A stretch of DNA of 64,000 nt from a virus (Duplodnaviria > Caudoviricetes): IMG/VR virus record IMGVR_UViG_3300032135_000005, positions 29,764 through 93,763 of that record. One strand, 5' to 3'. The notes beneath the pieces were generated by a model that saw nothing but the letters and a program-made list of their open reading frames with translations, ran no database searches and was not told where the DNA came from. Positions within the stretch are counted from its first letter, which is position 1. Each line of letters begins with the position of its first letter. Positions 4,501 through 34,784 of this stretch are shown piece by piece. A program made the translations under genes and the position numbers.

Positions 4501-5525
4501 GGTATGCGTTTAACAGTATAATTAACTGTAATTCCCTGTGCTACTCTAAACCAATTAATATCAGGTTTCTCTGCTTCTATTGGTGCGCCTAGTAATAAAG
4601 TTCCATCCTTTTGAGCTAAGTATTTAGCAGATGCATAAGCTATTCCTGATGCTATGAACTCTTCTGTAGTAAGGTCTCCATTATCATCTGAAGCTCCTCT
4701 ATATGATGTAAGGACAGTAGACTGTCCATTAATCAATATCCTAGAAGACTTAGTAATTTTTTGTGCATTAGATAGTCCTATATAAGTAAGTACACCTAAT
4801 TCTATGTATTTAAAAGCTGTATCTACATTTTCAATTTTTAGAGTGATAGCTTTAGATGTTATTGTTTGTGTTGGGTCTCCTTTTATCCTATATCTAGAAC
4901 CATTAAGTGAAGCACTTACTATTGGTATAACTCCAGAGACAATGCCAAAAGGTGTAGAAGCTCCTGAATCAGTTACAAGTCTAGCAACAAACTGGTAAAC
5001 TCCTGATAGGAGTTCTCCTGAATTTGTCTCTCCTGTATACCTAACTCTAGGTAAATCATATTCTAAGAATAAAGATGTAACTTTATCAAAGTCTTCGTCA
5101 TCAGTAGGAAGTATTATATCATCTGGAGTTTTCCCAAGATTAATTCTACGAGAACCTGCGGGTGTACTAAAGTAAATTACTCTTTCTCCTGCCCAGTTCT
5201 TCTTACCTTCTACTTGAGTTGGGTCTGTAATACCAAGAACATCAACTCCAGCTCTAACAGGAACTTCTACATTCCATACGCCGTTTATATCTAAAGAACC
5301 TATGATACTTTTACTGTTAATTGTTCCTAATAGAATAGTTTCATCCCCAATAGCGCAAGAACCCCATTCAATAAAGTTAGCCGGTACATTAGTAGGTAAA
5401 TTCCCCTCGTCTGTACGTTTAGCTCTTCCTGCAACCCTCATATTTACTGCATCAGTATAGGCACCTGGTGGAGTATGTATAGGCTTGGTATTAGTAAAAA
5501 GTCCTTTAGTAAAATCCGTTTTCAT
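1599..5525 (-). CDS. Tail stabilization / muzzle protein (P22 gp10-like tail tubular protein B)
   Basis: 1308 aa; N-terminus FTKGL.T...P..PPGAYTDAVNMR and C-terminus KMRGNYMEIKL typical of crAss-like muzzle proteins; follows a ring protein gene. Confidence 0.8.
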   Translation of the reverse strand: MKTDFTKGLFTNTKPIHTPPGAYTDAVNMRVAGRAKRTDEGNLPTNVPANFIEWGSCAIGDETILLGTINSKSIIGSLDINGVWNVEVPVRAGVDVLGITDPTQVEGKKNWAGERVIYFSTPAGSRRINLGKTPDDIILPTDDEDFDKVTSLFLEYDLPRVRYTGETNSGELLSGVYQFVARLVTDSGASTPFGIVSGVIPIVSASLNGSRYRIKGDPTQTITSKAITLKIENVDTAFKYIELGVLTYIGLSNAQKITKSSRILINGQSTVLTSYRGASDDNGDLTTEEFIASGIAYASAKYLAQKDGTLLLGAPIEAEKPDINWFRVAQGITVNYTVKRIPFTENLRFEGQSYTRTNIIDESDFELRETSDESMNPTNEGYKDPVTCALYKGYRRDEVYTFTLTPVFKSGVYGATVHIPGPASGSPTVDTDPNDGGVLGSYISEELYPDDRYTGLIGTGLRLFKMPSAKQQPIIEGNVENGNCFIRVLGLEFTNIVLDPSEVQYEEQIAGFIIGRVDKRGQETQLAQGIVRPNIDLATNNLPDNVRTTMLADGFTAVGTEGNDNLDTSSLDSVPDLTDFTFVAPDLIHNVYSSALATYIKQHSVYKSDPYAAKFDYYINSNDRIYDSPEDPSRVNVAFHNVLGISDLSFDNSEVLLEPNPKDIRPFGVPHMSFKDGGKRNVIIQKGSRELQMASSQGFTWFSTASPTAPIKFEGKIANPYYYWCFNEGETNRWRERCKYLEPDGFRSDLVIHTLTRHNTKQYGSLDQMVSMFVDYVDWKSFNGTVNVYNGDTFISKYGLKLSDESAWVYQENDDQGDRRREFIKPNNMNVMLYFWLESDNNYDYRHYTESTTYTEDNITGAASTLPFYPYYKQLANVDTPFGLLTMGSPNWLHPGYCKTYNTQYSTQPTIKPFVVTPLEDTERKGSLVNRIIYSSQAVQGEKSDAYQLFAPNNYYDVPQEFGELTDLYVNRELFASTAQVQWKLFYNMLATQATSAGEITLGSGGAFNRAAVPMSTVDGGYAGTSHWLHAINTVWGRVIVDKRQGKFFLMQETLGVISQDLNGSVRLDVQALSDTYGNILVGSEPLRERVFIKVGSTMWSYNLERRIFASRHTWVPRWFFSHGPHLYSNQINSVVGSTGVFKHSAGVTGEYYGKLHKSSITIVANGEETVSKLFRNFEVLTKRTTEEGLNLPFSTWNQVEVFNEERYTGIVNITPKTNAFQLAVPMEVLTDKVKDTFRITTPRDVVLDPEVNIFALNNHAQHRGDAELTKWLPKMRGNYMEIKLTSDNTQGPLFFYDLTVGLSKNIR

Positions 5526-15812: not shown

Positions 15813-18800
15813 CTATCGTTTCATATTTGATGTAAATAACTTACGAGAAAAGAAGTCTTTTCTTGGCGTAGCATCTACGTCTTCATCTTCCTCCTCCTCT
15901 GGTCTACCAGCGTCAATAATTATATTACGCATTTGTATTAATTGGATGATTGCTAACATCAAAGCAATTACCCTATCAAAGTTACCGTCAACATTATACG
16001 AGATTAACTCGTCTAGCAAAGGTATACTTTTTATCGTATGTAATTGTAATTTTCCATCGCCAATTGGTGTAAGTAACCATTCACGTAGATAAATTTCACA
16101 TTCATTCTTAACTTGAGTCGGCATGTGTTGCCCGTAAACTCTAGTTCTAGCAGTCTTAGAAGTTTCATTTGCTTTCAATACTCCAGGAGTATACGCAAGT
16201 AAATCTATAGAATACATTTTCTTAAAGTATTCTTTGATGTGCTGCTTCTCATTTTCATACAAACAACTAGCATCTCCGTACCATCTCAGCATTCTTCTGA
16301 CTTGCTCGTAAAAGTCTGAAGCTAATCCGGGTCTTCCAGTATACTCTGCTACTATTCTATCAAAGCCTCCATTAAGTGGAGTAGCTCTTTTGATAATTAT
16401 TACAGAACCTAAAGATACTGAGTTAGGAGCAATATCAAAATCATAAGGGTCATTTCCTGCTACGTACCATCCATATTCTGCACGCTCGTCAGGTCGTTCC
16501 CAAATAACAACAGCTCCTGTGTTATCATCAGTAATCTTAACAGGATAACTTGCAGGTTTATAATTATCAGGATCTACATTGAAGTAAGGTTTGTAGTCCT
16601 CATCAAGAAGCATCCATCCGTCTAATCCTGTGATAGAAGGGTCATTGCCCATTGCTAACAATTGATCTTTATGTTCCTTCAAGTCAGTGGTAGGAAGAAT
16701 AGAATTGTTTGTAAGTAAGAACACTTCAGAGTGCACAAGAGGTCTTTGTACAATCTCATCCTCGTAAGCTTGTTTCTTTTTAACATTCTTCTTGAGGCGT
16801 TCCCTAGTTTTATGTAAATATTTTAATGCAGCTCTCCAGTTAGTATTACCTAGCTCATCTTTGAACTGATTCAGGGTCATCCACGCAGGTACAAAGAATC
16901 CTATCTTAGTTTGGTAACCTTCAAATTCATCATCGAACTGTAAACAATCGAATGCCGCCGGAGAATAGAATACTTGCTTCACAGCTTCTGTAGCTCCACC
17001 CGTCATATCTCCACCAGTACCGCACATCCAGATAGTACCTTGTTTTACAGTACCATCAGCTGCAGCTTCTTTCATTTGTCCTAGAACTTCTATAAGGTTC
17101 ACCATAAATCCTACTTCATCAATAGTAGCCCAGTTAGGACGCGTACCGTTGGCAGCAACGTGGTTATCATTAAAAGATCTGTGTTGTATAAGAGAAGCAG
17201 AACCTTTACGTTCCCACTGTCCTCCTATCTTGATATCGTATCCTGCAGTAATAGTATTGTGAGTAACCACATAGTCTCCACATAAGAATAATTTTGATTC
17301 ATTGTCTACAGATAAACAATAAGAGTCCTCTATTATAGTAGGTTCTATATTTACAATAGCTACTGAAGTCCTACTAGTTTTACTCGTACTACTTCTAGTA
17401 GGAAGTATTCTACTTTTCTTCCTACTTAATTTGAATACAATTTCTTCTGTATTAATAAATAATCTATAAGATTTACTGTATTTTTTAATCCCTTTATACT
17501 TCCAAGACGTTGTACGTTTCCGTAAATTTACTCTAATGCCTAGAGAGTGACACAAGAGTTCTACCCCCTTAATAAGAGTTTTATTTTTATTAGAAAATTC
17601 TATAGTACCATCAATACCTATAGAACCGTCAGAATCTAGCAGACCTTGCAGTAAATCTTTTCTTTGTTCATAAGACCCATAGAAATATTCCTCTGGTATG
17701 TGTTTATTTTGAATAAGATTAAGCGTTTGAAGTCCTGTTCTAATAGAATTTCCCCTTATTGAACCATCTCCTACAACAAAATAATGAGGACACTTCCCTT
17801 CTATTATCTCCGCTCGAAGAGTTAGATTTTTGTATAAACAAAGTTGTTTTAAATATTCTACAATCTCGGTATCTACAGTAGAAATAGAAGGACCTCTAGA
17901 ACTCCCATCTCCTAACCATAATCCTAAAAAGTAAGGTTCTAATGTAAATTGTTTTGGAGAATACTCTAATGATTTAGTCAAAGGAAGCCTGTACATATAA
18001 TCAGTCCTAGATCCTCTAATATTTACATACTTAGATTTGTAAATATCTATTAAAGACATTACTTTATTTTTACCTGCTTTAATAACCTCCCATTGATGAT
18101 CTGCACCGCAATATACTACTCTACCATCTTGAAGTGTAACTTTATATTGTAATTTATCTGTAAAGGAAAATTTATTGCATACTTTAGTAAGAATACCAGA
18201 ATCATCATAAATTTTATCCCCTATAGAAATATCTTTAATTTCTTTTACACCGTCAACAGTAAAAATCTTAGTATCCCATCTTAAATCTTTACCCGTGTCC
18301 CAAGAACCTGAGTATTTCTTAAAGAATGGAGATGGGTATACGTCATCTCCTATAACCATTTTTCCTGGTAGGTTATTAAAGCCCAGTTTTATTTTTCCTA
18401 TTAAATCGTTAGAGTATTTACTATCAATAGCACCTACTAAAGTTTCGGAAGTCATAGGTTCATCTGCCGCCTTACTTTCTAGATACTCATCATAATCTAA
18501 AGCTCCGTCAAATATGAAATTATGTCCTAGAGTTGCAGCAGCAAAGTAAGACTTTCCACCTCCTCTGGCTTCCATATCAGCCATATTGAAGTTCATATTA
18601 TAGTACATCGCCTTACCCATAGGTTTCTTGAAGTATCTTCTTAAATATTCTCTAGCTGGTACATAAGTTTTAAACGTACCATCTGGTTTAGTTACAGCGT
18701 CCCGTATTAAATCAGGATTGTTGTACTCCATAAGTAAATCCTCAAACTCATCAGGATCTTTATTAGGATCCACTTCATTTAAGATATTATGACAACTAAT

Positions 18801-19163
18801 CTCATCATCCATCTCGAAACCAGAGAAGCCTTTAACTTCAGATGTTAAGGCTGCTTTGATCCATTCGAGGTCTCTTAAAAAAGGTGTTTGTGTTTTCTTG
18901 ATTTTAGTCTTAGCTCCTTTTGGATTAAGTTTAATCTTCCAAAAGTTTACGAACCAATAGAGTGGGCCAGATACCCATTTATAATCTCCATTATGCTGTA
19001 CCCAATACCCGTCAATACATCTACGTTTCTGAATTTTCCACCACCGTTTGTACTCTAACCCGAGAGGGTTCATACGTGGAATATCTAAAGCTACCTGTAC
19101 TTTATCTACGGGTATTCGATTCTTATACAGAATCCACATATTATCATGTACTGGTAGCGCCAT
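15813..19163 (-). CDS. terL: Terminase large subunit containing an intein
   Basis: Walker A ARGGGKS, Walker B TIDEVG, nuclease motifs AGNDPYD and GNFDRVIA; 344-aa insertion with intein blocks. Confidence 0.92.
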   Translation of the reverse strand: MALPVHDNMWILYKNRIPVDKVQVALDIPRMNPLGLEYKRWWKIQKRRCIDGYWVQHNGDYKWVSGPLYWFVNFWKIKLNPKGAKTKIKKTQTPFLRDLEWIKAALTSEVKGFSGFEMDDEISCHNILNEVDPNKDPDEFEDLLMEYNNPDLIRDAVTKPDGTFKTYVPAREYLRRYFKKPMGKAMYYNMNFNMADMEARGGGKSYFAAATLGHNFIFDGALDYDEYLESKAADEPMTSETLVGAIDSKYSNDLIGKIKLGFNNLPGKMVIGDDVYPSPFFKKYSGSWDTGKDLRWDTKIFTVDGVKEIKDISIGDKIYDDSGILTKVCNKFSFTDKLQYKVTLQDGRVVYCGADHQWEVIKAGKNKVMSLIDIYKSKYVNIRGSRTDYMYRLPLTKSLEYSPKQFTLEPYFLGLWLGDGSSRGPSISTVDTEIVEYLKQLCLYKNLTLRAEIIEGKCPHYFVVGDGSIRGNSIRTGLQTLNLIQNKHIPEEYFYGSYEQRKDLLQGLLDSDGSIGIDGTIEFSNKNKTLIKGVELLCHSLGIRVNLRKRTTSWKYKGIKKYSKSYRLFINTEEIVFKLSRKKSRILPTRSSTSKTSRTSVAIVNIEPTIIEDSYCLSVDNESKLFLCGDYVVTHNTITAGYDIKIGGQWERKGSASLIQHRSFNDNHVAANGTRPNWATIDEVGFMVNLIEVLGQMKEAAADGTVKQGTIWMCGTGGDMTGGATEAVKQVFYSPAAFDCLQFDDEFEGYQTKIGFFVPAWMTLNQFKDELGNTNWRAALKYLHKTRERLKKNVKKKQAYEDEIVQRPLVHSEVFLLTNNSILPTTDLKEHKDQLLAMGNDPSITGLDGWMLLDEDYKPYFNVDPDNYKPASYPVKITDDNTGAVVIWERPDERAEYGWYVAGNDPYDFDIAPNSVSLGSVIIIKRATPLNGGFDRIVAEYTGRPGLASDFYEQVRRMLRWYGDASCLYENEKQHIKEYFKKMYSIDLLAYTPGVLKANETSKTARTRVYGQHMPTQVKNECEIYLREWLLTPIGDGKLQLHTIKSIPLLDELISYNVDGNFDRVIALMLAIIQLIQMRNIIIDAGRPEEEEDEDVDATPRKDFFSRKLFTSNMKR
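17256..18287 (-). mobile_element. Intein with LAGLIDADG homing endonuclease (class-3-like, Asp at position 1)
   Basis: Block A DLRWDTKIFTVDG after extein GK; block B CGADHQW; LAGLIDADG motifs LGLWLGDG and LLQGLLDSDG; block F/G YCLSVD...YVVTHN followed by extein Thr. Confidence 0.88.
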
Positions 19164-25719: not shown

Positions 25720-25920
25720 TTACGCTTCCGTGAGACATAGGGGATGGTCCATTGGATTATAATCTCCTATATAGAGAACAGTAAATCTATAACTTGTATG
25801 AGATTCTTCTTGTACTCTCCATAAAGAACTAGTCCCATTAGGGTACCAAACTACTTTTGCTTTCCCTATTCCGTGAAGAACACGTTCAGCATTATGATCT
25901 CTGGATATATTATTTTTCAT
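25720..25920 (-). CDS. Hypothetical protein, first gene of the leftward arm
   Basis: ATG at 25920 just after promoter-like TACCTTTA (25925-25932). Confidence 0.45.
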   Translation of the reverse strand: MKNNISRDHNAERVLHGIGKAKVVWYPNGTSSLWRVQEESHTSYRFTVLYIGDYNPMDHPLCLTEA

Positions 25921-26075
25921 ACAGTAAAGGTACAACTTTTATTTTAAAATCTGTACTATAATTTTTAAAAAAATATTTTCGTGTGTCATTTCTGGGACCA
26001 CTATGTAACACCACCCCCATCTATAGAATCAGCCTACACGGGTAGGGTAATATTAAACGTTAAACATTTAATCTA

Positions 26076-26507
26076 ATGCAAGAAACAAAAACTAAAAACA
26101 GTACAGATGCACAAATGAAAGCATTTATGAAAGGAGCCGTTTACGTTCCTTCTACATTTACAAGTAATTCAACCTTATGGGTAAGCTTATCCAAATCAAT
26201 AGTCATTGATTGTACAATTCACGCTTCTAAACAGAACCCTGAAAAGTGGTGGGTAACTAACGACTTCGACAATGAAGGCGTCAGCACAGGTGACTGTTAT
26301 GATCGGATCCAAGACCGATTTGATGCAGGGGAACGTTCCATTACCATTAAGATGATACATCAAGAGCCTCGTCCTGAGGCTGATTGTGGACCCACCATAG
26401 AGTACGTATTAGGTCTTGAACGTGGTAAGTCTGTAATCGATAACTATCGATTAGCACTGGATACTCCAGGTGCTGTACGTAATAGTATTGCAATCTTAAT
26501 GGATTAA
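26076..26507 (+). CDS. Hypothetical protein, first gene of the rightward arm
   Basis: 143 aa followed by a terminator. Confidence 0.7.
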   Translation: MQETKTKNSTDAQMKAFMKGAVYVPSTFTSNSTLWVSLSKSIVIDCTIHASKQNPEKWWVTNDFDNEGVSTGDCYDRIQDRFDAGERSITIKMIHQEPRPEADCGPTIEYVLGLERGKSVIDNYRLALDTPGAVRNSIAILMD

Positions 26508-26512
26508 TCAAT

Positions 26513-26542
26513 AAGAGGCGCTGACGCGTCTCTTTTCTTTTT
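26513..26542 (+). terminator. Intrinsic terminator
   Basis: AAGAGGCG/CGTCTCTT stem then TTCTTTTT. Confidence 0.7.
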
Positions 26543-26939
26543 ACTTGGAAAGTGTGAACTACCATTGAATTGGAAAGAACAAACTAAATTACTTTAAGCT
26601 ATTATAGTTAGTGTATTATACCTTAGAGAGTTAGTTGTAAAGAGTTAAAGTACTAATTTAGGTAAGAACTCCTAACTTAACTGTTTATTGAGTGAATAAT
26701 GTGCTTGTAAGCCTTGGTATCAGAGCTCTAAGCCCTTTATTCCACATTGAACATCTTACAACTCATCAATAATCAAACTAACTAATATAACATAAACCTA
26801 ATTAAAACTTTAAATAACTACTTATGAAAACAATACTATCTCGTGATTACAGTATACCTGCTGTATCAACTATCACTAAAACAGCTACACATACAATAAT
26901 AACTTACACTAAGCCTCTCTTGACCTAATGACAGAGACG

Positions 26940-27066
26940 CTATACATTTATGTAAAGTCCTACACTATTGACCAATGTAGGCATTAAACTTTGAGTCAAG
27001 CTCTTATAATACTGAGCAATGTATAGAGAACAAGTCCTAAGCAAGACTTACAGAGTTAAACTGCTT
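26940..27066 (+). ncRNA. Putative structured RNA A plus compact pseudoknot
   Basis: Closing helix CTATACATT (26940-48)/AATGTATAG (27018-26); inner CCTACA/TGTAGG and GCTC/GAGC; then AAGTC/GACTT crossed with AAGCA/TGCTT (27032-27066). Confidence 0.5.
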
Positions 27067-27079
27067 TTAATTAAAACTT

Positions 27080-27290
27080 AACTATTCACCCATAGGAAGG
27101 AATTCAATAGTGCTAGTAGTCAACAGCTCTCCCAATGAACTGCGCAACTGTAGCTCTCACTGAACTGAAACAAGTACACAACCCTTAATGCAAGTGCACA
27201 TTGCAAAAAGCTAGCATAATAGCTAGACACTGAATTATACAATAACATCTGATGTCTATTAGTACTCAGGCCAGTTGTATGTGAATAGTT
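27080..27290 (+). ncRNA. Putative structured RNA B (~210 nt)
   Basis: Perfect 10-bp closing helix AACTATTCAC/GTGAATAGTT; inner TGCAA/TTGCA and CTAGC/GCTAG hairpins; no ORF. Confidence 0.55.
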
Positions 27291-27300
27291 TTTAATCAAT

Positions 27301-27410
27301 AATAATCATTATAGGTGTTACATTCCAGCCCTTAATATAACATAGTACCTGTATAGGTACTAGGCTAATTCTATATGCAGAGACCAACAGTTGTGGAGCT
27401 AATGATTATT
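27301..27410 (+). ncRNA. Putative structured RNA C (~110 nt)
   Basis: 11-bp closing helix AATAATCATTA/TAATGATTATT; inner TAGTACCT-GTAT-AGGTACTA. Confidence 0.55.
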
Positions 27411-27427
27411 TATTAAACAATACTAAT

Positions 27428-27507
27428 CCTATGTGCTAACAGCTTACACGCATCCACAATAAGATGAAGATCTTTAGAGTAATTTGTAAATACTGTTAGC
27501 AAGTAGG
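27428..27507 (+). ncRNA. Putative structured RNA D (~80 nt)
   Basis: Nested CCTA/TAGG, TGCTAACAG/CTGTTAGCA, TTACA/TGTAA. Confidence 0.5.
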
Positions 27508-27532
27508 TATTATTAATTAATAACTTAGTATT

Positions 27533-27685
27533 ATGAAAGACTTAAATAAAGAACTATCAGATATATCTCTTAAAGAGCTATATAAATTCAGAAGTATACT
27601 CAACATTATTATTAACAATAGAATAGAGACTGAAAGATTAGAAGATGATAATGAATGTGATGCAACTGAAGTTGATATTTATTAA
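27533..27685 (+). CDS. Small acidic-tailed hypothetical protein (50 aa)
   Basis: Read manually: MKDLNKELSDISLKELYKF...EDDNECDATEVDIY. Confidence 0.45.
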   Translation: MKDLNKELSDISLKELYKFRSILNIIINNRIETERLEDDNECDATEVDIY

Positions 27686-28265
27686 AAACAATTAAAACCT
27701 TTAAAAATAAAACACAAAAAAGATACTTTTACCGAAGGAACTTATATTATAATAATTACTGTATTGGTAATGATATTTATAAGTATACTCATTAAAATAG
27801 CTCCAATGAGTAACAGTGAAGCAGGAGCTATAATGACTGAACGTGGAGGATATATGTATAACTTAGATGTAGTTTACATTTATATGCCTGAAGAGCCATT
27901 GGAGATAGAACTAGAAGCTGCAACTATATTAGCTAGTAATGCTGATGTTGTTGTTTTATCCTTAATCCAAGAGTAGTATGACCTATAAAAGAGCTAAACT
28001 AGAACTAAAGATATTTAAGATAGTGAAAGCTGTCTTATTTATCATAGTAATATCCTGCTTTGTATGGTTCATAGTGGACTGTTTCACTCAAGGATATGAT
28101 TATAAACTATTACGATAATAGCTAAAAAGAAGAAAGTTCGTCGTACAATAGTACCAATTGAGAACCCTGCTACTAATACTAGCTTGAAACCTAAACTTAA
28201 GAGGTCAATTGAATGGTTCTTAGGAGAATCTGAATCTAAATTTCATAAATAACAACTAAATAATT

Positions 28266-28550
28266 ATGTTAACACTTAAAAAACTTAAAGAAATGACTCC
28301 TGGGAAAGTATTTGCCCAAGGTGTAATTAAAAACTCCCTTGAAGGCATTTATATGACAGATTCAAGGATTGGAGAGAATCTTATGTGGGTAGCTAAACGT
28401 GGAGGTATTTATGATTGGGCTATTTACATACATTGGGAAATCAGTGGATTTAATTACGTACTTACATCAGGAGATAAAGTACAATCTAAAGAATATATTC
28501 AAAAGCTTATACCTTGTGACAAAGAAGCTTTGAAGATGTATAGACATTAA
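28266..28550 (+). CDS. Hypothetical protein
   Basis: 94-aa ORF with AT-rich leader. Confidence 0.65.
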   Translation: MLTLKKLKEMTPGKVFAQGVIKNSLEGIYMTDSRIGENLMWVAKRGGIYDWAIYIHWEISGFNYVLTSGDKVQSKEYIQKLIPCDKEALKMYRH

Positions 28551-28569
28551 CAATTAAAAAGAAATAATT

Positions 28570-28794
28570 ATGCCAAAACATTTTGTAACATTTGGACAAA
28601 TACATATTCATAGAATCAATAATAAAGTAATAGATCGTGATTCTGTAGCTGTATTTAATGCAGATTCTCCTCAAGAAGGAAGAGATAAAGCTTTTGAATT
28701 CTTTGGAAATAAGTTCTTTACTGATTACCATGATAAAGAATGGACAGGAGAAGACTTACATTTCTTCCCAAGAGGATATGTAGAAATAGAATAA
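28570..28794 (+). CDS. Hypothetical protein
   Basis: 74-aa ORF. Confidence 0.6.
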   Translation: MPKHFVTFGQIHIHRINNKVIDRDSVAVFNADSPQEGRDKAFEFFGNKFFTDYHDKEWTGEDLHFFPRGYVEIE

Positions 28795-28805
28795 CAACTA
28801 AACTC

Positions 28806-28836
28806 TTTGATTGTTATAAAACATTTTGTATATTTG
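28806..28836 (+). promoter_or_regulatory. Bacteroidota sigmaA-type promoter of the HNH gene
   Basis: TTTG (28806-09), 19-nt spacer, TATATTTG (28829-36); ATG at 28841 implies an almost leaderless mRNA. Confidence 0.7.
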
Positions 28837-28840
28837 TATT

Positions 28841-29281
28841 ATGAAGAAAATAGATGGAACTTATTCAATTAATACTCAAGGAGTAGTGATGAATATTAAA
28901 ACAAATAAAAAACTATCGCATACTATAAGTAATGGATATGTGGTAGTTTCTCTTTATAGAAAAAGTAAGAAATTACATCAATTATTGGCACAATGTTTTA
29001 TACCTAATCCTAATAATTATAAATATATAAACCATAAAGATGGTAATAAATTAAATAATTCTTTAGATAATTTAGAATGGTGTAATTATAGTATGAATTT
29101 AAAACATGCTTGGGATAATAATTTAAGAGTTTGGAATCCTAAGAGTGCTAGAGTAAGTAGATTTAATGATACTGAAAAAACTGAGATTAAATCTTTAAAA
29201 GTTACTAAAACTAATAAAGAAATAGCTCAATTATATAATTGTCATCCTTCTATTATACAAAGAATAACAAGTAATAAATAA
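28841..29281 (+). CDS. Free-standing HNH homing endonuclease with C-terminal HTH
   Basis: LHQLLAQCFIPNP...INHKDGNKLNN.LDNLEWC...N..HA; NKEIAQLYNCHPSII HTH. Confidence 0.88.
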   Translation: MKKIDGTYSINTQGVVMNIKTNKKLSHTISNGYVVVSLYRKSKKLHQLLAQCFIPNPNNYKYINHKDGNKLNNSLDNLEWCNYSMNLKHAWDNNLRVWNPKSARVSRFNDTEKTEIKSLKVTKTNKEIAQLYNCHPSIIQRITSNK

Positions 29282-29283
29282 TT

Positions 29284-29522
29284 AAACTCTTTGAATTGAA
29301 GATAAACAATAATTAAATGAAAGGATGATTGTCTAGAGGCATATTTAATGCGACAATAGGGTTATGAGGATTTTAATTATAAACTGTATCAGCAGTTGTG
29401 TTCCCGTAAGGGTATTAAATATTGTAGATGTATTATAGATATAAGAGACCTAGTTGAATTAACGACTGCAATGGCACATATCATACATAATATCCCATAA
29501 CTGAACTTTGGGCAAAGAGTTT
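29284..29522 (+). ncRNA. Putative structured RNA E (~240 nt)
   Basis: Closing helix AAACTCTTTG/CAAAGAGTTT plus T-tract; inner TTGTC/GACAA, GTTATG(A)GGAT/ATCCCATAAC, GCAGTTG/CGACTGC, CCC-GTAA-GGG. Confidence 0.6.
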
Positions 29523-29720
29523 TTTAAATTAATAATTAAAATCAATAAGAATAATGGGAAAGAAATATGACCCTAATACACGCGAGCAAATATTTGAGCT
29601 CAAAGGAAATCGAACTGTGTTCAAAACACACAATGGCTTCAAATGCCATCTACAAGATAAAAATGATGTTGTTACACCTATTTCACAAGAATACTACACT
29701 AAAGTAAAACGCAGTAAACT

Positions 29721-29906
29721 ATGAAATATCTTAAATACACAGCATTAGTATTAACCTTTATATTTATGATGATACCAGCATATAATAGCTATGATTTAGT
29801 TGTTACCAATGTACATAACTTTATGGACAATTGGTACTACTATGTATTAGCATTAATATGTTATGTTATCTATGTAGTATTAAAGAACAAAAACATTTTT
29901 AAGTAA
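29721..29906 (+). CDS. Small two-TM membrane protein
   Basis: 61 aa with two hydrophobic segments. Confidence 0.55.
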   Translation: MKYLKYTALVLTFIFMMIPAYNSYDLVVTNVHNFMDNWYYYVLALICYVIYVVLKNKNIFK

Positions 29907-30017
29907 GCAAGCGATTAATTAACACGCTGCTCATTGCTTACGAGCACCTAACCTTTTATTGGATCTACTAACAATAACGTTGTTGGAAATCGAACCGGAC
30001 TAATAAAGTTAGGTGCT
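29903..30017 (+). ncRNA. Two adjacent long hairpins (structured element F)
   Basis: GTAAGCAA/TTGCTTAC (29903-29941); AGCACCTAAC..TTTATT/AATAAAGTTAGGTGCT (29943-30017). Confidence 0.5.
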
Positions 30018-30039
30018 TTAATTAAAATCCATAAAACTT

Positions 30040-30693
30040 ATGAAAGAACTAATAAAAGTACATATGTTACCTGACAGTAAACCTAGAAGTGTACTGTGTA
30101 ATAGTAAAACTAAAGAATATAAGTACTCTAAATTAGGTTCTTTAAGCTTAGGACATTTAGATTTTCAACCACAAAACCTATACTTCACATCAGATGAAAA
30201 GATTAAATCAAATGAAGGTAAGATAATGGGGGACTGGTGTTGGAATAGTATTTATAATAAAATATTCCAAATGAATGGAGATGTAACTGCATATGATTTT
30301 AAAATAGTAGCAACTACTGATAAATCATTAATTATACCTTGTAAATGTGGTAATATAAGTCCTTGTGCTTTATATCCAGAACAAATTTGTAATTTTAAAA
30401 AGTATCCACAAATATCCCAACAATTTCAAGAAGAATATTGTAAAGCTGGAGGTATTGATGAGGTTTATTTAGAATATGAACTAAATCCACATATTTATGA
30501 TAGTTCTAAAGATACTAAAACACTTAAACTAGACTTAAACAATTGTGTTATTACTCATCCTGTTGAACTTAAACTTTATACTAAGGAAGAAGTAAATGCT
30601 AAATGTATTGCTTTTGCTGATTTATGTGTGCATAAAGGAATCTTTAGGGAAAAAATAAGAGGAGAGTTTATCAATTGGATTAAAGAAACTTAA
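30040..30693 (+). CDS. Hypothetical protein
   Basis: 217 aa; PQNLYFTSDEKIK...KIVATTDKSL motif. Confidence 0.75.
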   Translation: MKELIKVHMLPDSKPRSVLCNSKTKEYKYSKLGSLSLGHLDFQPQNLYFTSDEKIKSNEGKIMGDWCWNSIYNKIFQMNGDVTAYDFKIVATTDKSLIIPCKCGNISPCALYPEQICNFKKYPQISQQFQEEYCKAGGIDEVYLEYELNPHIYDSSKDTKTLKLDLNNCVITHPVELKLYTKEEVNAKCIAFADLCVHKGIFREKIRGEFINWIKET

Positions 30694-30788
30694 ACTAATA
30701 GATATTATGTCTAAAATAATTAAAGTAATACTCTTGATTATACTATTTATGATAATTCAAGCTGTATTCTTTAGAATTTCTTAAGGCT

Positions 30789-31123
30789 AAACATTGAACC
30801 TTTGTGAAGAGAAGTGAGTCCTCCAAGTATTGAAAAATAGATGGAATAAAGGTTAGCATAATTCACATAAAGATACTAATCCTGAGCACAGGATATTAAC
30901 AGAGAATAGTAGACTCAAACTCTACTCTGCTTTTAGTAAGAACCATAAAGAATTATTTAGTAGTAAATTGCTATTAAAGAGAATCAATGTAAACCAAACA
31001 ATTAAAAGATATAATAATGGAGTAATCCTAGATGTGTTGTTCTCTTGAGAAAGGAATATTGTAATGACAGAGGTACTGTTACAACACAAATGAGTTCTCA
31101 ACATTAACTTGGGTTCAATGTTT
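30789..31123 (+). ncRNA. Putative large multibranch RNA G (~335 nt)
   Basis: 12-bp closing helix AAACATTGAACC/GGTTCAATGTTT; inner TGTGAA/TTCACA, ATCCTG/CAGGAT, TACTAA/TTAGTA, TGTGTTGT/ACAACACA; no + strand ORF. Confidence 0.6.
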
Positions 31124-31140
31124 TTAATATAGTCCAAAAT

Positions 31141-31655
31141 CCTTATGACTTTAAACTGTAACCTACCAGTAATGGTAACAAAAAATTATCTAAGTTAGTA
31201 GATTTTATATCGAAAAACCCCTTAAACCTCTGTATGTAATGTTTATGTGGTATGAACGATAAAGATTGTAATATAAAAGTTACTTAAGAAAGGTAAGTCA
31301 ATGGTTGTTCCTCAATATTAATATTGAAAACTTCAGAAAGGAAAATGACTTACTTTTATATTACAATTAGGAATAGATGCAACTGTATGAGATATGTTGC
31401 TTAGTGAATTAAAAACTCCCACAGACTAGTGGCTGGAGCACAATATAGAAATATATGAAGACACTTATTCACATTATTGGAAGTTCTCAGCAAGTAGTTA
31501 AGATGGTCAGGAAAATATTACGTAAGTAACTATTGATTACTGGTTAAAAAATAAGTATCCACAATAACTACGTGACCCTACTCTTATGACCAAGTTGAAT
31601 TTATTCAACGGTTATTAAAGAAATGAATTGACATATCCATAAGAAAGAGGGTGCT
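31141..31655 (+). ncRNA. Putative structured RNA block H (~510 nt, one or several RNAs)
   Basis: 16-bp perfect helix ATTGTAATATAAAAGT/ACTTTTATATTACAAT (31265-31367); TACCA-GTAA-TGGTA; GCAAC/GTTGC; GTAGTTA/TAACTAC; ACCCT..TCTTATG/CATAAGA..AGGGT. Confidence 0.55.
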
Positions 31656-31825
31656 AATTTAAAATAACTTAAAACCTTTACAAATGATAACCAAATCAAA
31701 AAGAAGACATTTTACACGTCAATTAATTGACACTAGATTAATGAATCTTTTAACTAAAATCTGTACTAATAAGTTAGAAGTTGAAATAAGATACAGACAA
31801 ATGCGTATTGAACCAACATATATTT

Positions 31826-32170
31826 ATGCAGGCTCAAGAGCGTAGAGAAATAATAGAAGTATTTGAAAAACTAATCAAATATATAGAAGAGAACTTAGAT
31901 AATTGCACATATTTATGTCTAATGAAACAGTATATAGGTTCATTTAGAACCTGTGGCTTTAATAGAATGATTATTCTAGCTCACAATTATCTACAGGCAC
32001 AACGACCTACTTCAACTAAGAATAAAAAGCATTATAACTCTTTATCCTTTAGTAGAAATAAACATGCTGAACCTGCTTGGTGGAACTATCAATTACAACC
32101 TGATAGAGTACCAACAAATATGGAAAAAGTAAGATTTTTAAAGCATTTAATACAGAAACTTAAAAGATAA
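31826..32170 (+). CDS. Hypothetical protein
   Basis: ORF track 31808-32170; first ATG at 31826. Confidence 0.55.
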   Translation: MQAQERREIIEVFEKLIKYIEENLDNCTYLCLMKQYIGSFRTCGFNRMIILAHNYLQAQRPTSTKNKKHYNSLSFSRNKHAEPAWWNYQLQPDRVPTNMEKVRFLKHLIQKLKR

Positions 32171-32174
32171 TTAT

Positions 32175-32273
32175 TATCTTTACAGTCATCCTTGTGAGTG
32201 CATCTGGTTAAACTCTCATCTTTTTCATATGCAATTTTCCTCTCTTTGGGCCATGATCTTAAAGGGAGGTTTT
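32175..32273 (+). ncRNA. Candidate ~90-nt small RNA (promoter-like box to terminator)
   Basis: TATCTTTA at 32175-82; ends in CCTCTCTTT/AAAGGGAGG-TTTT hairpin; no ORF. Confidence 0.4.
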
Positions 32274-32369
32274 AACTAAAATTTAATGAATATAAAACTA
32301 CAATATAAGTAAGGGTCTCCTACGGATAATGCCGGGGAGTTTTTACTTTAATCTTAAAACCATAAAGAA

Positions 32370-34784
32370 ATGAGTAAATTTAAAAAAGGTGACAAAGTAA
32401 TGATACGTCCTGATAGTGAATATTATCGAGGACAGAACTTCCGTAAGGGTGAAGTAATTATGCGTACTATTACAAGTATTGCAGATAATACTGGGTTAAA
32501 TCATCATACTGACCATAATGTTTATAATGAAAAGGATTTAGAGTTCTATCGTGACGATGCTAGCTCTACTCGTAAATTTAAAGTAGGAGATGCAATTATA
32601 GGTAATTCCACAGCAACATATAATGTTACTAAAGAAGGATGGATTGGAGTTGTAACTAAACTTCTAACAGATAATATTATTGAGGCTAGAAATTTTACTC
32701 CTAATGATCCTAAAGACTCAAGTTATACATTAAGAGAAGAAGCATTTGATTTACATACAGTAGCTAAATTTAAAAAAGGAAATATTGTAAGAGCTCTTGT
32801 AGATAGTCCACGTGCACTAGCTGCTTTGTGTTCTAAAGGAGATTTACTTAGAGTAGACGATGTATATGGAACTACCAGTTTCTCTTCAGATATGTGTAGA
32901 GGAGAGGCTCATTATTGGAGTGGAATGCACACGGAAGATTTTGAACTTACAAGTTTAACCTCAACTGAACCTGCAGTTAAAAAGCCTGATATATCTTACA
33001 AGTTTGCAGTAGGAGATACTGTTAAAATTGTAGCAAATGGATGGGGTGTAGGAGAGAGAGCTTTAGGTAAAACTACTACAATAACAGAATTAGGTCTTTA
33101 TTGTGGTCCTGGATATAAATGTAGTCTTGGATTTGGTAATTGCGCACATGGTAGTCATGGATTTGTTGGAGAGAAATCTTTTGAACTAATAAGTCCGGAA
33201 TCTATAAAAGAATCATCTTATAAATTTGATATAGGAGATATAGTAAGAATTATAAGGAGTGGACACGGAATAGCCAACAGTGATGAAGGTCAAGAAGTTA
33301 CTATTATAGAGCAGGGTATGTATCAGAATAAAGAACTTGGATACAGAATAGACCCACCATTTGGTAACTCTAAAGATGGTAAATTTAAGTATATGTGTGG
33401 AGAAACTTCATTTGAGTTAGTAAGTCGACCTATAAAGAGTCCAAGTTTTAAAGCAAGAGACATTCTAGAATTTATTCGTAAAGACCCAATTGGTACTTGT
33501 TTTGAAATTGGCGACCACGTTACTTTCCTTAAGTATGAGGGTGATACGGTAAAAGCTAAAGGTATAATGTCTACTTCAGATTGTATTACAACTCAAAATG
33601 CTCGTATTCATCAATTTAAGTTTGTACGTTCAGCTAAAGATGTACCTAAAGCAATTCTCACATCATTTCCAACTGAAGGTTGGTGTCTTAATGCAAATAT
33701 GTCTCTTGGAATATTTTTAAGAGATAAATTTGAAGTAGGTTCTTCTCCTAAACCTTCAGGTTCTAGTGGATATGCTTGGAATTCCCATAGTTATTGGGCT
33801 ATAGCTACATTTTCAGGTAAACCTAAATATGATTGGGAAGATTTAAAACAATTTGTAAAAGCTGCATCAGAACTTAAAATAATTGCATCTAGTTCTAAAT
33901 CAACGCCACTTAAATATAAATTAGATGATAAATTAGTTATTAAGTATAGATTACACGGAAATATGTTTGAAATAGGAACTGTTGTTCAAGTAGTAGAAAT
34001 TAATGCTAAATATATTAACTGTCCTTATAGAGTAGTTAGTGTTAGTTCAGAAGGTGATAGTGATTGGTGGGTTAATGATGATGAAGTTGATTTTTATGGC
34101 GATAAAGTTCCTGATTATCCTCTTAAATATAGTAAAGGAGACAAAGTTGTTATTACAGGAAATACTAATGACCACGGATTTGGAATTGGTGATGTAGTTA
34201 AGATTACATCAGTACATTTACCTAGCAATAGTTATACAGCTCAGAGTGGAAAAGGTACTCATTGGAGTATTAAAGATGCTGAAGTAGAACCTTATTTACA
34301 ACCGGGAGTAGGAATGAGAGAACAGATTACATCAGGAGGAAGAGGTTATGGTAAAACCGCTAAAGCTGCAACGGATGAATATCTTAGAGAACATCCTAGA
34401 GTATCTTCTGATTGTGAGTCTGATGTAAGTAGTTCAACTATTCAAGGTAAATGGCCTGTAGATCCACCAATATATCTTAAAGGAACAGATCCTTATAGAC
34501 CAATGGGAGTATCGGCAGAAGAAGCAACTCGTAGGTCCTGTATGGAATTTGTAGGAATGGGTCAAAGTGCACATTTAGCTCATATGAGAGAACATCCTAT
34601 GATGCCTTCAGATGTATTTAAGATGCATTTTGGAATGTCAGAACGTAATTCTAAATTAGAAGTAAAAGTTAAAGACGATTCTCTAAAGAGTCGTATTGTT
34701 AAAACAAGTCCACTTATCAAGCGTGTGACTAAACTAAAAGGTTTGATTGTCCCTTTAAAATCAATCAAAAGTCGTATTAAATAA
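32370..34784 (+). CDS. Tandem SH3/KOW-like repeat protein (804 aa)
   Basis: About eight modules beginning KFKKGDKV, KFKVGDAI, KFKKGNIV, KFAVGDTV, KFDIGDIV, SFKARDIL, KYKLDDKL, KYSKGDKV. Confidence 0.75.
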   Translation: MSKFKKGDKVMIRPDSEYYRGQNFRKGEVIMRTITSIADNTGLNHHTDHNVYNEKDLEFYRDDASSTRKFKVGDAIIGNSTATYNVTKEGWIGVVTKLLTDNIIEARNFTPNDPKDSSYTLREEAFDLHTVAKFKKGNIVRALVDSPRALAALCSKGDLLRVDDVYGTTSFSSDMCRGEAHYWSGMHTEDFELTSLTSTEPAVKKPDISYKFAVGDTVKIVANGWGVGERALGKTTTITELGLYCGPGYKCSLGFGNCAHGSHGFVGEKSFELISPESIKESSYKFDIGDIVRIIRSGHGIANSDEGQEVTIIEQGMYQNKELGYRIDPPFGNSKDGKFKYMCGETSFELVSRPIKSPSFKARDILEFIRKDPIGTCFEIGDHVTFLKYEGDTVKAKGIMSTSDCITTQNARIHQFKFVRSAKDVPKAILTSFPTEGWCLNANMSLGIFLRDKFEVGSSPKPSGSSGYAWNSHSYWAIATFSGKPKYDWEDLKQFVKAASELKIIASSSKSTPLKYKLDDKLVIKYRLHGNMFEIGTVVQVVEINAKYINCPYRVVSVSSEGDSDWWVNDDEVDFYGDKVPDYPLKYSKGDKVVITGNTNDHGFGIGDVVKITSVHLPSNSYTAQSGKGTHWSIKDAEVEPYLQPGVGMREQITSGGRGYGKTAKAATDEYLREHPRVSSDCESDVSSSTIQGKWPVDPPIYLKGTDPYRPMGVSAEEATRRSCMEFVGMGQSAHLAHMREHPMMPSDVFKMHFGMSERNSKLEVKVKDDSLKSRIVKTSPLIKRVTKLKGLIVPLKSIKSRIK

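What the first reader, a model, noticed from the sequence alone, without database searches (positions are those of the whole stretch)
26900..31660. Array of distinct helix-closed structured RNAs at the start of the rightward transcription arm
Seen: in a genome that is otherwise densely coding, about 2 kb here has no credible ORF and splits into consecutive blocks. Each block is bracketed by its own perfect 9-16 bp inverted repeat (26940/27026, 27080/27290, 27301/27410, 27434/27501, 29284/29522, 29943/30017, 30789/31123, 31265/31367) and filled with nested hairpins, several with GNRA-type loops (GAAA, GTAA). Blocks abut with short A/U spacers and share no obvious sequence, so this is not a CRISPR or tandem repeat. 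I see no tRNA, tmRNA or hammerhead core. Inference: a polycistronic cassette of different ncRNAs, expressed early and released by cleavage of the closing helices (RNase III-like). Possible roles are decoys of host RNA-binding or defence proteins (RNA anti-CRISPR, antitoxin mimics) or scaffold RNAs. This is the best candidate for an undescribed system in the window.
Basis: partly seen in the sequence, partly recalled or inferred. Interest (0 to 1): 0.85.

Follow-up and report, generated by a model that had tools for sequence, protein, structure and literature searches.

The report
Two phage RNA genes, endonuclease-invaded
The gene-free stretches at the head of this brine crAss-like phage's early arm hold two real folded RNA genes from phage-only families that no catalogue lists, both invaded by selfish HNH endonuclease cassettes; the other proposed RNA blocks are unproven and the RNAs' job is unknown.

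Summary
All eight inverted repeats sit at the stated coordinates, and 2,273 nt are ORF-free under every stop-codon reassignment tried. The "eight distinct RNAs" reading holds only in part.

- **Block 5 (29282-29528)** belongs to a ~160-290-nt helix-closed RNA family, "F2", found in 91 IMG/VR contigs.
- **Blocks 7 and 8 plus 31482-31658** are not separate RNAs. They are one gene of a second family, "F1", a pseudoknotted ~250-450-nt RNA found in about 100 contigs.
- **Covariation and catalogues.** Both families show strong covariation, are absent from Rfam 15, and are almost absent from 185,579 prokaryote genomes.
- **Context.** Both lie on the same strand as phage tRNA and tmRNA genes. F1 matches a non-coding stretch of Cellulophaga phage phi14:2 that is probably its abundant unexplained early transcript.
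- **F1 is interrupted.** After its pseudoknot strand comes a ~381-nt ORF-less remnant of an HNH homing-endonuclease cassette that carries a covarying spare copy of the F1 core.
- **F2 has an intact HNH gene** with its own promoter directly upstream.
- **Blocks 1-4 and 6** have no homologues. Their abutting tiling exceeds chance, but their folding energy does not.

Function is unknown. This scan has already met both families in other genomes.

The parts
26513..26534 (+). Terminator-like hairpin with a T-run that ends the preceding gene (26076-26507). The orphan non-coding stretch starts after it.
26940..27026 (+). Block 1: orphan three-way junction closed by a 9-bp helix. Unverified as an RNA.
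   Evidence: Inverted repeat. Fold z = -2.1. No homologues.
27080..27290 (+). Block 2: orphan 211-nt block closed by a 10-bp helix and followed by a U-run, as in F2. Unverified.
   Evidence: Inverted repeat. z = -1.2. Tiling statistic. No homologues.
27301..27410 (+). Block 3: orphan 110-nt block closed by an 11-bp helix. Unverified.
   Evidence: Inverted repeat. z = -0.7. Tiling statistic.
27426..27510 (+). Block 4: orphan long hairpin with a 9-bp perfect core at 27434-27501. Unverified.
   Evidence: Inverted repeat. z = -3.7.
28799..28836 (+). Upstream copy of the 12-nt start of F2 (28799-28810), which supplies the TTTG of a Bacteroidota-type promoter (TTTG, 19 nt, TATATTTG) for the HNH gene.
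   Evidence: It is the only + strand TAnnTTTG between 25860 and 33220.
28826..29281 (+). HNH homing endonuclease gene, probable ATG at 28841, inserted directly upstream of the F2 RNA gene.
   Evidence: phrog_59 at 7.5e-37. DNA hits to HNH genes of crAss-like and Staphylococcus phages. A 55%-identical HNH sits in the same position before F2 in L178.
29282..29528 (+). Closing helix 29284-29293 / 29513-29522 followed by a U-run, conserved 5' motif, and conserved central hairpin at about 29382-29402. It carries a window-specific 17-nt insert that includes a small GUAA-capped hairpin.
   Evidence: Alignments A3 and A5. The closing helix has 6-15 double compensatory changes in 30 sequences. nhmmer 1.2e-21.
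29943..30017 (+). Block 6: orphan 75-nt near-perfect long hairpin between small ORFs and the 217-aa gene. Could be a terminator, a processing site or a small RNA. Unverified.
   Evidence: z = -5.6. No homologues.
30040..30693 (+). Context gene: homologue of phi14:2 gp006, which also lies directly upstream of F1 in that phage.
   Evidence: phrog_15656. tblastn 33% identity to L001 2284-2676. Layout.
30785..31128 (+).
- Invariant 5' motif at 30789-30798.
- Helices H1-H3.
- Hairpin whose loop (31046-31051) pairs with 31095-31100 to form the pseudoknot.
- Closed by a 12-bp helix (30789-30800 / 31112-31123) followed by a U-run.
   Evidence: Collinear with phi14:2 and about 60 other copies. nhmmer 9e-08 and 2e-13. 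Structure test. The same closure is seen in L139.
31101..31481 (+). Intervening sequence that splits the F1 consensus between its pseudoknot strand and the following conserved GCAAG. It is flanked by the 8-nt repeat AGTTCTCA (31093-31100 and 31482-31489). It is an ORF-less derivative of an HNH cassette.
   Evidence: The same site is occupied by HNH-bearing or HNH-decayed cassettes in L004, L008, L064, L101, L089, L043, L080/L036, L044 and L048. Contigs of run X3 diverge from the window after 31173 and resume before 31372, running into a TATATTTG motif on one side and an HNH-type 3' end on the other.
31265..31367 (+). It is an expanded version of the cassette's copy of F1 hairpin H2.
   Evidence: Position compared with L008 and L004 cassettes. 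A related contig has a short hairpin here.
31372..31489 (+). Cassette-borne spare F1 core.
- Helix H3': 31372-31376 / 31474-31478.
- Hairpin 31379-31400 with the conserved 12-nt loop.
- A closed variable arm.
- The second pseudoknot strand, 31484-31489.
   Evidence: The loop motif is shared with 10 other cassettes, and the stems differ compensatorily among them.
31490..31658 (+). F1 3' domain. Two helices with variable tips flank the 16-mer at 31571-31586 that is shared with 109 IMG/VR contigs. The 3' end lies at about 31658.
   Evidence: nhmmer 4.9e-21. Structure test.

Best explanation
The ORF-free stretches are a mosaic, not eight unrelated RNAs.

**Shown**
- Two are genes for conserved, phage-restricted structured RNAs. 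F2 lies at 29282-29528 and is closed by a helix. F1 lies at 30785-31658 and is a multi-helix RNA with a hairpin-loop pseudoknot.
- Both families lie on the same strand as phage tRNA and tmRNA genes in other phages, and often start directly after them.
- Both genes here have been hit by HNH homing-endonuclease cassettes. An intact, self-promoted HNH gene sits at the 5' edge of F2. A decayed, ORF-less cassette sits inside F1 at a site occupied by such cassettes in at least ten other phage contigs.
- That cassette carries a terminator-like hairpin and a covarying spare copy of the F1 core (hairpin H2, helix H3, pseudoknot hairpin).

**Inferred**
- The locus now makes a helix-closed 5'-domain RNA (F1-A) and a second RNA (F1-B) in which the spare core is joined to the original 3' domain.
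- The RNAs are made early from the rightward arm by the phage's own polymerase and accumulate as stable RNAs, as in phi14:2.
- They act in trans through invariant unpaired or loop nucleotides on a conserved host component. My guess is the translation or tRNA machinery (about 30%).

**Unverified**
- Blocks 1-4 and the 29943-30017 hairpin are lineage-specific candidates only.
For: **F1**
- The window is collinear with one contiguous ~450-nt non-coding stretch of phi14:2.
- A 16-mer is shared with 109 IMG/VR contigs, nearly all with the conserved flanks.
- There are 62 distinct full-length copies.
- On alignment A4, 53 pairs are 94% paired against 34-47% when slid, and 19 pairs show double changes; 0 of 500 shuffles reach the observed values. 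The pseudoknot is 100% paired, with one compensatory change and three wobble changes.

**F2**
- 91 contigs carry it.
- Several different closing-helix sequences each have their exact complement downstream.

**Restriction to phages**
- Only 2 true hits were found in 185,579 prokaryote genomes.
- Rfam 15 has no match for the window, phi14:2 or five other loci.

**Context**
- Every tRNA or tmRNA within 3 kb of F1 is on the same strand: 31 loci with tRNAs and 12 with tmRNAs.
- Several F1 and F2 copies start 1-8 nt after a tRNA 3' end.
- F1 and F2 are never on opposite strands.

**Expression**
- Two long phi14:2 intergenic regions are reported as transcribed rightward above most genes, early and persistently.

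**Cassettes**
-.

**Phage identity**
- The major capsid protein matches only crAss-like phages, at 38% identity.
Against: - No RNA data exist for this phage, so transcription, RNA ends and any splicing are unseen.
- Assigning F1 to the phi14:2 'g004-g005' transcript rests on my reading of the gene numbering. The supplement was not available.
- The window's F1 might simply be a disrupted pseudogene.
- The function is pure inference. The 5' invariant motif has no identified partner, and no protein gene is consistently linked.
- Blocks 1-4 fold no better than shuffled sequence overall.
Confidence: 0.6

Rival explanations
1. Eight or so different ncRNAs are transcribed as one early polycistron, each cut out at its closing helix by an RNase III-like enzyme, and they act as decoys of host defence or RNA-binding proteins.
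For: - The helix-closed architecture is real for F2, where the closing helix covaries, and for F1-A.
- The tiling of abutting closed blocks at 26799-27501 exceeds chance.
- No host-type promoter motif occurs on the + strand across 25860-33220 except at the HNH gene. This fits a long early transcript.
Against: - Three 'blocks' are parts of one family.
- The blocks are interrupted by ORFs and by a self-promoted HNH gene.
- Closing helices of 9-12 bp are short for RNase III (my knowledge).
- In other phages the RNAs abut tRNA 3' ends, which points to RNase P or RNase Z type processing.
- Nothing links them to any defence system.
Confidence: 0.15
2. The 381-nt interruption of F1, and its HNH-bearing relatives, is a self-splicing intron that has lost its endonuclease gene here. 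The mature F1 would then be one contiguous canonical RNA, and the F1-like hairpins inside the insert would serve the intron.
For: - Insertion at one precise site in the most conserved segment of a structural RNA gene, with an HNH ORF in relatives, is the classic picture of a mobile intron.
- A boundary after a U and ending in a G that restores the consensus, or the consensus with one substitution, can be drawn in the window, L004 and L008 (read).
Against: - There is no group I or group II intron match in the window or in five cassette-bearing loci, even at E<=1 to E<=10.
- The 5' hairpin of the insert does not include the exon end, so no P1-like helix forms. Instead it looks like a terminator.
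- The target sequence is duplicated at both edges.
- The insert's 3' part reproduces F1's own H2, H3 and pseudoknot hairpin, with covariation.
- In L048 and L089 no upstream 5' domain remains at all.
Confidence: 0.15
3. The orphan 26560-27530 stretch (blocks 1-4) is not a set of RNA genes. It would be regulatory DNA at the junction of the two transcription arms, such as a replication origin, early promoters or protein-binding inverted repeats.
For: - The cumulative GC skew reaches its minimum at 26-27 kb, where gene orientation flips.
- The whole stretch folds no better than shuffles, z = -0.9.
- Both strands fold about equally well.
- No homologue was found in 1.65 Mb of related RNA-island loci, in INPHARED, or through neighbouring proteins.
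Against: - A chain of four abutting helix-closed blocks was never seen in shuffles or coding controls.
- Block 2 ends in a helix plus U-run, exactly like F2 and F1-A.
- No iterons or long direct repeats are present.
Confidence: 0.3
4. F1 and F2 are self-assembling RNA-only scaffolds or cages of the GOLLD/ROOL kind, not binders of a host factor.
For: - They share the genomic habit reported for GOLLD and ROOL: phage or prophage, beside tRNAs, probably co-transcribed (PMC5737381).
- Those RNAs form multimeric RNA-only assemblies (bioRxiv 10.1101/2024.12.08.627333).
- F1 is reported as very abundant in phi14:2.
- The invariant 5' motif pairs with a complementary closure in two variants, so it is available for RNA-RNA pairing.
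Against: - There is no match to either Rfam model.
- F1 and F2 are two to four times smaller.
- I found no self-complementary conserved loop.
Confidence: 0.12

Closest known systems
Abundant intergenic 'long non-coding RNAs' of Cellulophaga crAss-like phage phi14:2 (Drobysheva et al., bioRxiv 10.1101/2020.03.07.982082)
   Same: - The window's F1 is collinear with KC821624 2913-3361 and sits directly after the homologous upstream gene.
- phi14:2 also has an F2 at about 1285-1572.
- The reported transcripts run rightward, appear early, persist, and exceed most mRNAs.
   Different: - The phi14:2 F1 is uninterrupted and is followed by a tmRNA gene. The window has no tmRNA and its F1 is split by a cassette remnant.
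- The paper gives no family, structure or function.
- Mapping its 'g004-g005' region onto F1 is my inference.
GOLLD and ROOL large ornate RNAs (Weinberg et al. 2017, PMC5737381; cryo-EM, bioRxiv 10.1101/2024.12.08.627333)
   Same: They are complex-folded, pseudoknotted orphan RNAs found in phages or prophages next to tRNA genes, and were for long of unknown function.
   Different: - There is no sequence or structure match to either model.
- F1 (250-450 nt) and F2 (160-290 nt) are much smaller.
- F1 and F2 occur in phages whose promoter motifs and nearest cultured relatives point to Bacteroidota hosts, and are nearly absent from cellular genomes.
Small stable RNAs C and D (rnaC, rnaD) in the tRNA gene cluster of phage T4 (my own knowledge; not retrieved)
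   Same: They are phage-encoded stable structured RNAs embedded among tRNA genes and co-processed with them, and their function is still unknown.
   Different: The sequences are unrelated, the T4 RNAs are smaller, and the hosts are enterobacteria.
Homing-endonuclease invasion of conserved genes: group I introns with HNH ORFs, and free-standing endonuclease genes that split a gene into two working pieces, such as mobE in nrdA of phage Aeh1 (my own knowledge)
   Same: - An HNH gene with its own promoter is inserted at one fixed site in the most conserved part of a target gene.
- ORF-less, decayed copies occur in other genomes.
   Different: - The target is a non-coding RNA gene.
- The cassette carries a covarying replacement copy of part of its target rather than a recognisable ribozyme.

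Membership tests
F1: uncatalogued phage RNA family (phi14:2 type) | Ordered conserved motifs: 5' AAACAUUGA, hairpin with loop CUUGAGAAA, GAGUUCUCAGCAAGU, the 16-mer around GUGACCCUAC, and 3' AGAGGGUGCUAA | tested here: met
   All are present in order at 30785-31100 and 31482-31658. nhmmer gives 9e-08, 2e-13 and 5e-21.
F1: uncatalogued phage RNA family (phi14:2 type) | Seven helices including the loop-to-strand pseudoknot, supported by covariation | tested here: met
   The window keeps H1 with a compensatory change, and keeps H3, the pseudoknot and both 3' helices.
F1: uncatalogued phage RNA family (phi14:2 type) | One contiguous RNA | tested here: not met
   A 381-nt cassette remnant separates the pseudoknot strand from the 3' domain.
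F2: uncatalogued helix-closed phage RNA family | A covarying 8-10-bp closing helix followed by a U-run, the 5' motif UUGAAGAUAAAC, and a central hairpin with the conserved 21-mer | tested here: met
   nhmmer 1.2e-21.
Any Rfam 15 family (including GOLLD, ROOL, group I and II introns, RNase P, 6S, SRP, HEARO, ribozymes) | Covariance-model score at or near the gathering threshold | tested here: not met
   The window has no match at gathering score, and nothing meaningful at E<=10. The F1 and F2 loci of phi14:2 and five other contigs also have none.
tRNA / tmRNA | Cloverleaf, or tRNA-like domain plus tag reading frame | tested here: not met
   ARAGORN finds none in the window. It does find the phi14:2 tmRNA, which serves as a positive control.
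Group I intron (for the insert in F1) | P1 helix containing the 5' exon end; conserved P3-P9 core; 5' exon ending in U and intron ending in G | tested here: inconclusive
   No model match and no P1 can be drawn. U and G boundaries can be drawn, but only because the target is duplicated at both edges.
HNH homing endonuclease (ORF 28826-29281) | HNH nuclease domain in a small free-standing ORF with its own promoter, with sporadic distribution at a fixed site | tested here: met
   phrog_59 at 7.5e-37. Promoter. Same position before F2 in L178. Related HNH genes lie inside F1 in other contigs.
CRISPR array or tandem repeat | Regularly spaced direct repeats | tested here: not met
   Only scattered two-copy direct repeats of 10-22 nt.
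RNase III-processed polycistronic RNA | Cleavage within the closing duplexes | not testable with these tools
   No RNA data set holds this phage.

The most novel reading that the evidence does not exclude
F1 and F2, and perhaps the orphan helix-closed blocks, form an early-expressed kit of trans-acting RNAs with which crAss-like and other phages of probable Bacteroidota hosts act on a conserved host machine, either as binders of the translation or tRNA apparatus or as a new ribozyme class. In addition, the HNH cassettes represent an undescribed homing strategy. The selfish element carries a working spare part of the RNA gene it disrupts, so the target stays functional without any splicing.
Probability: 0.2. 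Interest if true: 0.85.

Novelty: new variant of a known kind. Interest (0 to 1): 0.62.

Why it matters
- **Scale.** Two structured RNA families are spread over roughly a hundred uncultured phage contigs each. One is probably among the most abundant transcripts of the only well-studied non-gut crAss-like phage. Both are missing from RNA catalogues and have no known function.
- **Conservation.** Long invariant unpaired stretches, a pseudoknot, and repeated targeting by homing endonucleases all suggest an important, sequence-constrained role.
- **Tractability.** phi14:2 and its Cellulophaga host are culturable, so the function can be tested directly.
- **Homing.** A cassette that carries a replacement core of its target RNA, if confirmed, would be a new way for a selfish element to avoid harming its host gene.

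Tried and rejected
- **Rfam and ARAGORN.** Rfam at gathering and permissive thresholds on the window, phi14:2 and five loci gave nothing for these RNAs, and ARAGORN found nothing in the window.
- **Alternative genetic codes.** No hidden ORFs appear.
- **Closer relatives of this phage.** Searches through neighbouring proteins found none: 26076-26507 in IMG/VR and JGI metagenomes, and 32370-34784 in IMG/VR.
- **Homologues of blocks 1-4, block 6 and the first part of the insert.** BLAST and nhmmer against 1.65 Mb of F1/F2 loci gave only chance-level hits. Extra F1 or F2 copies elsewhere in the 93.8-kb record: none.
- **Sequencing runs.** No RNA holder is listed. Only brine DNA metagenomes hold the phage. 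Laying four of them gave near-identical strains plus fragments of relatives, with no variation in blocks 1-4 usable for covariation.
- **Linked protein partner.** The gp006-like gene is near F1 or F2 in only about 10 of 189 loci.
- **Partner for the invariant 5' motif.** Its complement is not enriched near F1. It closes the RNA in cis only in the window and in L139.
- **Host-type promoters in front of the RNAs.** None on the + strand across 25860-33220 except the HNH promoter. The sigma-70 scan is at chance level.
- **Literature.** I found no paper describing these families. The UG/Abi reverse-transcriptase paper was irrelevant. The phi14:2 supplement is not held. A search for the T4 stable RNAs returned nothing.

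Full report
**Setting.** The window is the right-hand 64 kb of a 93.8-kb IMG/VR virus record. The same DNA is held by brine metagenomes. Its major capsid protein matches only crAss-like phages, at 38% identity. Portal, terminase and capsid genes lie on the minus strand to the left, and replication genes on the plus strand to the right. Gene orientation and GC skew flip near 26 kb.

**Check of the observation.**
- Four stretches totalling 2,273 nt have no ORF. None appears when TAG, TGA or TAA is read as sense.
- ARAGORN finds no tRNA or tmRNA, and Rfam 15 has no match even at E<=10.
- Perfect repeats of 9 nt or more are 2.8-fold denser here than across the window.
- GNRA-capped hairpins are 3.6-fold denser.
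- In 26560-27530 a chain of four abutting helix-closed blocks occurs. Neither 500 dinucleotide shuffles nor 112 coding windows ever exceed two.
- Folding energies are weak evidence. Block z-scores run from -0.7 to -3.7, only the 29943-30017 hairpin reaches -5.6, and the whole first stretch scores -0.9. The two RNAs proved real below score only -1.6 to -2.9, so this measure discriminates poorly here.

**Family F1.**
- *Homology.* A BLAST hit led to Cellulophaga phage phi14:2. Its non-coding stretch 2913-3361 is collinear with window 30785-31100 plus 31482-31658.
- *Distribution.* A 16-mer from the 3' part occurs in 109 IMG/VR contigs, nearly all with the same conserved flanks around variable hairpins. 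I recovered 62 distinct full-length copies, mostly 250-450 nt.
- *Structure.* On a 16-sequence alignment, a seven-helix model is 94% paired against 34-47% when partners are slid. Nineteen pairs have changes on both sides, and no shuffle reaches the observed values.
- *Pseudoknot.* The invariant hairpin loop UGAGAA pairs with UUCUCA just after helix H3. One sequence has the compensatory UGAAAA / UUUUCA, and three have U-G.
- *Unexplained element.* The 5' AAACAUUGA is invariant and has no partner in canonical members.

**Family F2.**
- Block 5 aligns with stretches that lie upstream of F1 in several loci and with phi14:2 at about 1285-1572.
- A degenerate 21-mer from its central hairpin occurs in 91 IMG/VR contigs.
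- The 8-10-bp closing helix exists in several sequence versions, each with its exact complement 160-350 nt downstream. Five of its pairs show 6-15 double changes among 30 sequences.
- F1 and F2 share the 5' words UUAAAC and UUGAAGAUA.

**Context of both families.**
- Every tRNA or tmRNA within 3 kb of F1 is on the same strand: 31 loci with tRNAs and 12 with tmRNAs.
- Several copies start 1-8 nt after a tRNA 3' end, and some F2 copies have their own Bacteroidota-type promoter.
- F1 and F2 are never on opposite strands, and F2 usually lies 0-800 nt upstream of F1.
- In 185,579 prokaryote genomes the F1 16-mer has 14 hits. Only two have F1 flanks, both on MAG contigs labelled Clostridium.
- Rfam finds nothing at F1 or F2 in phi14:2 or five other loci, while it does find their tRNAs and tmRNAs.
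- Drobysheva et al. report that two long phi14:2 intergenic regions are transcribed rightward above most genes from the earliest time point and do not decline, with function unknown. From the gene layout I infer that these are the F1 region and the tmRNA region. I could not check the numbering.

**The interruption of F1.**
- *Site.* In the window the consensus breaks right after the pseudoknot strand and resumes 381 nt later, with AGTTCTCA repeated at both edges.
- *Relatives.* The same site holds an HNH gene in L004, L008, L089 and L043. L064 and L101 carry the same cassette slightly upstream, just after hairpin H2. L080/L036, L044 and L048 hold internally deleted remnants at the site.
- *Cassette parts.* These cassettes begin with a hairpin plus U-run. 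They then carry a TTTG...TAnnTTTG promoter and the HNH ORF. They end with a miniature F1 core that runs into the target sequence. That core comprises a hairpin with the AGUAAU loop, a 5-bp helix, and a hairpin with a conserved 12-nt loop containing UGAGAU.
- *Covariation.* Among cassettes the two stems covary, with six versions of the hairpin stem and five of the helix. The window is one of these versions: 31379-31383 / 31396-31400 and 31372-31376 / 31474-31478.
- *Mobility.* The flanking 3' domains differ between carriers while the cassette core is nearly identical. So the core travels with the cassette.
- *Redundancy.* In L064 and L101 the upstream F1 part is cut back to the first two helices. 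In L048 and L089 it is gone. This is what one expects if the spare core makes it redundant.
- *A relative in the same habitat.* Contigs of brine run X3 leave the window after 31173 and rejoin it before 31372. Their unmatched ends carry a TATATTTG motif and an HNH-type 3' end followed by a short AGUAAU hairpin. I read this as a relative with an HNH gene there, so block 8 would be an expanded version of that hairpin.
- *Closure.* The first half (block 7) is closed by the 5' invariant motif pairing with a sequence just inside the insert, followed by a U-run. L139 has the same closure around a shorter 5' module.

I therefore read the locus as two RNAs. F1-A is the 5' domain. F1-B is the spare core plus the original 3' domain. 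A self-splicing intron remains a rival. Against it:
- no intron model matches;
- no P1 helix can be drawn;
- the target sequence is duplicated at both edges;
- an intron has no evident need to mimic its exon.

**The HNH gene at F2.** ORF 28826-29281 is an HNH endonuclease. It carries the only + strand Bacteroidota-type promoter motif in 25860-33220. The promoter's -33 element comes from a 12-nt duplicate of the F2 start. L178 has a 55%-identical HNH in the same place before its F2.

**What remains open.** Blocks 1-4 and the 29943-30017 hairpin have no homologues in any collection I could reach. They may be lineage-specific RNAs, which the tiling and the helix-plus-U-run ending of block 2 favour. 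They may instead be regulatory or origin DNA at the arm junction. No RNA data exist for this phage.

**Mechanism.**
- *Shown:* two conserved, structured, phage-restricted RNA genes; their link to tRNA and tmRNA islands; the HNH cassettes.
- *Inferred:* early transcription by the virion polymerase, stability, tRNA-type processing, and action in trans on a conserved host target. The translation or tRNA machinery is my best guess at about 30%. A GOLLD/ROOL-like self-assembly, a defence decoy and a ribozyme follow as less likely.

**Earlier work in this scan.** Follow-up agents described the same two families on other genomes as tandem uncatalogued phage RNA genes. What this window adds:
- the cassette with its spare core;
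- the split F1;
- the recurrent HNH-F2 pairing;
- the cis closure of the 5' motif.

Noticed in passing
L001 (KC821624) 1321-1434, 1470-1619, 3106-3431, 4213-4519: Small hypothetical ORFs annotated in the phi14:2 GenBank record overlap the F2 RNA, the F1 RNA and the tmRNA gene, several on the opposite strand. They are probably spurious calls. RefSeq has already removed some of them.
   Followed up: partly
L001 4031-4500: phi14:2 carries a tmRNA gene (tag peptide GSSVQKLAMVA) about 670 nt downstream of F1. In L082, L003, L106, L103 and L101 a tmRNA starts within about 100 nt of the F1 3' end.
   Followed up: partly
window 25860-33220: On the + strand, the Bacteroidota -7 promoter motif TAnnTTTG is absent from this 7.4-kb early region except at the HNH gene (one more lies on the minus strand at 31876), while it is common elsewhere in the window. 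This fits transcription of the early arm by a non-host polymerase.
   Followed up: partly
window 32160-32370: Another 210-nt gene-free gap holds two terminator-like hairpins (32239-32269 and about 32315-32345) and a GGTTAAAC word like the one that starts F1.
   Followed up: no
window 15813-19163 (minus strand): The large terminase ORF is 1,116 aa. It has about 280 extra N-terminal residues, and a middle part also matches P-loop helicase-loader and primase profiles. This could be a fusion or an inserted element.
   Followed up: no
L080 6783-6869: A sub-threshold match to the type-P1 twister ribozyme (36.9 bits, gathering score 67.2, E = 2e-4) lies in a phage contig that also carries F1 and F2.
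   Followed up: no
L101 1990-2100: A tRNA model match spans 111 nt directly after a tmRNA gene. It may be an intron-containing or long-arm tRNA.
   Followed up: no
L139 minus strand, about 2226-2435 of the reverse complement: A short helix-closed RNA made only of the F1 5' motif plus the first two helices lies directly in front of an F2 gene. A further F1-like start lies about 270 nt downstream. The 5' module of F1 can therefore exist on its own.
   Followed up: partly
window 29415-29615 and 30018-30218: In four brine metagenomes a much more abundant relative (contig depth 900-1,770, against 3-60 for this phage) joins an F2-like 3' end directly to a gp006-like gene. Its early region appears to be organised differently.
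   Followed up: no
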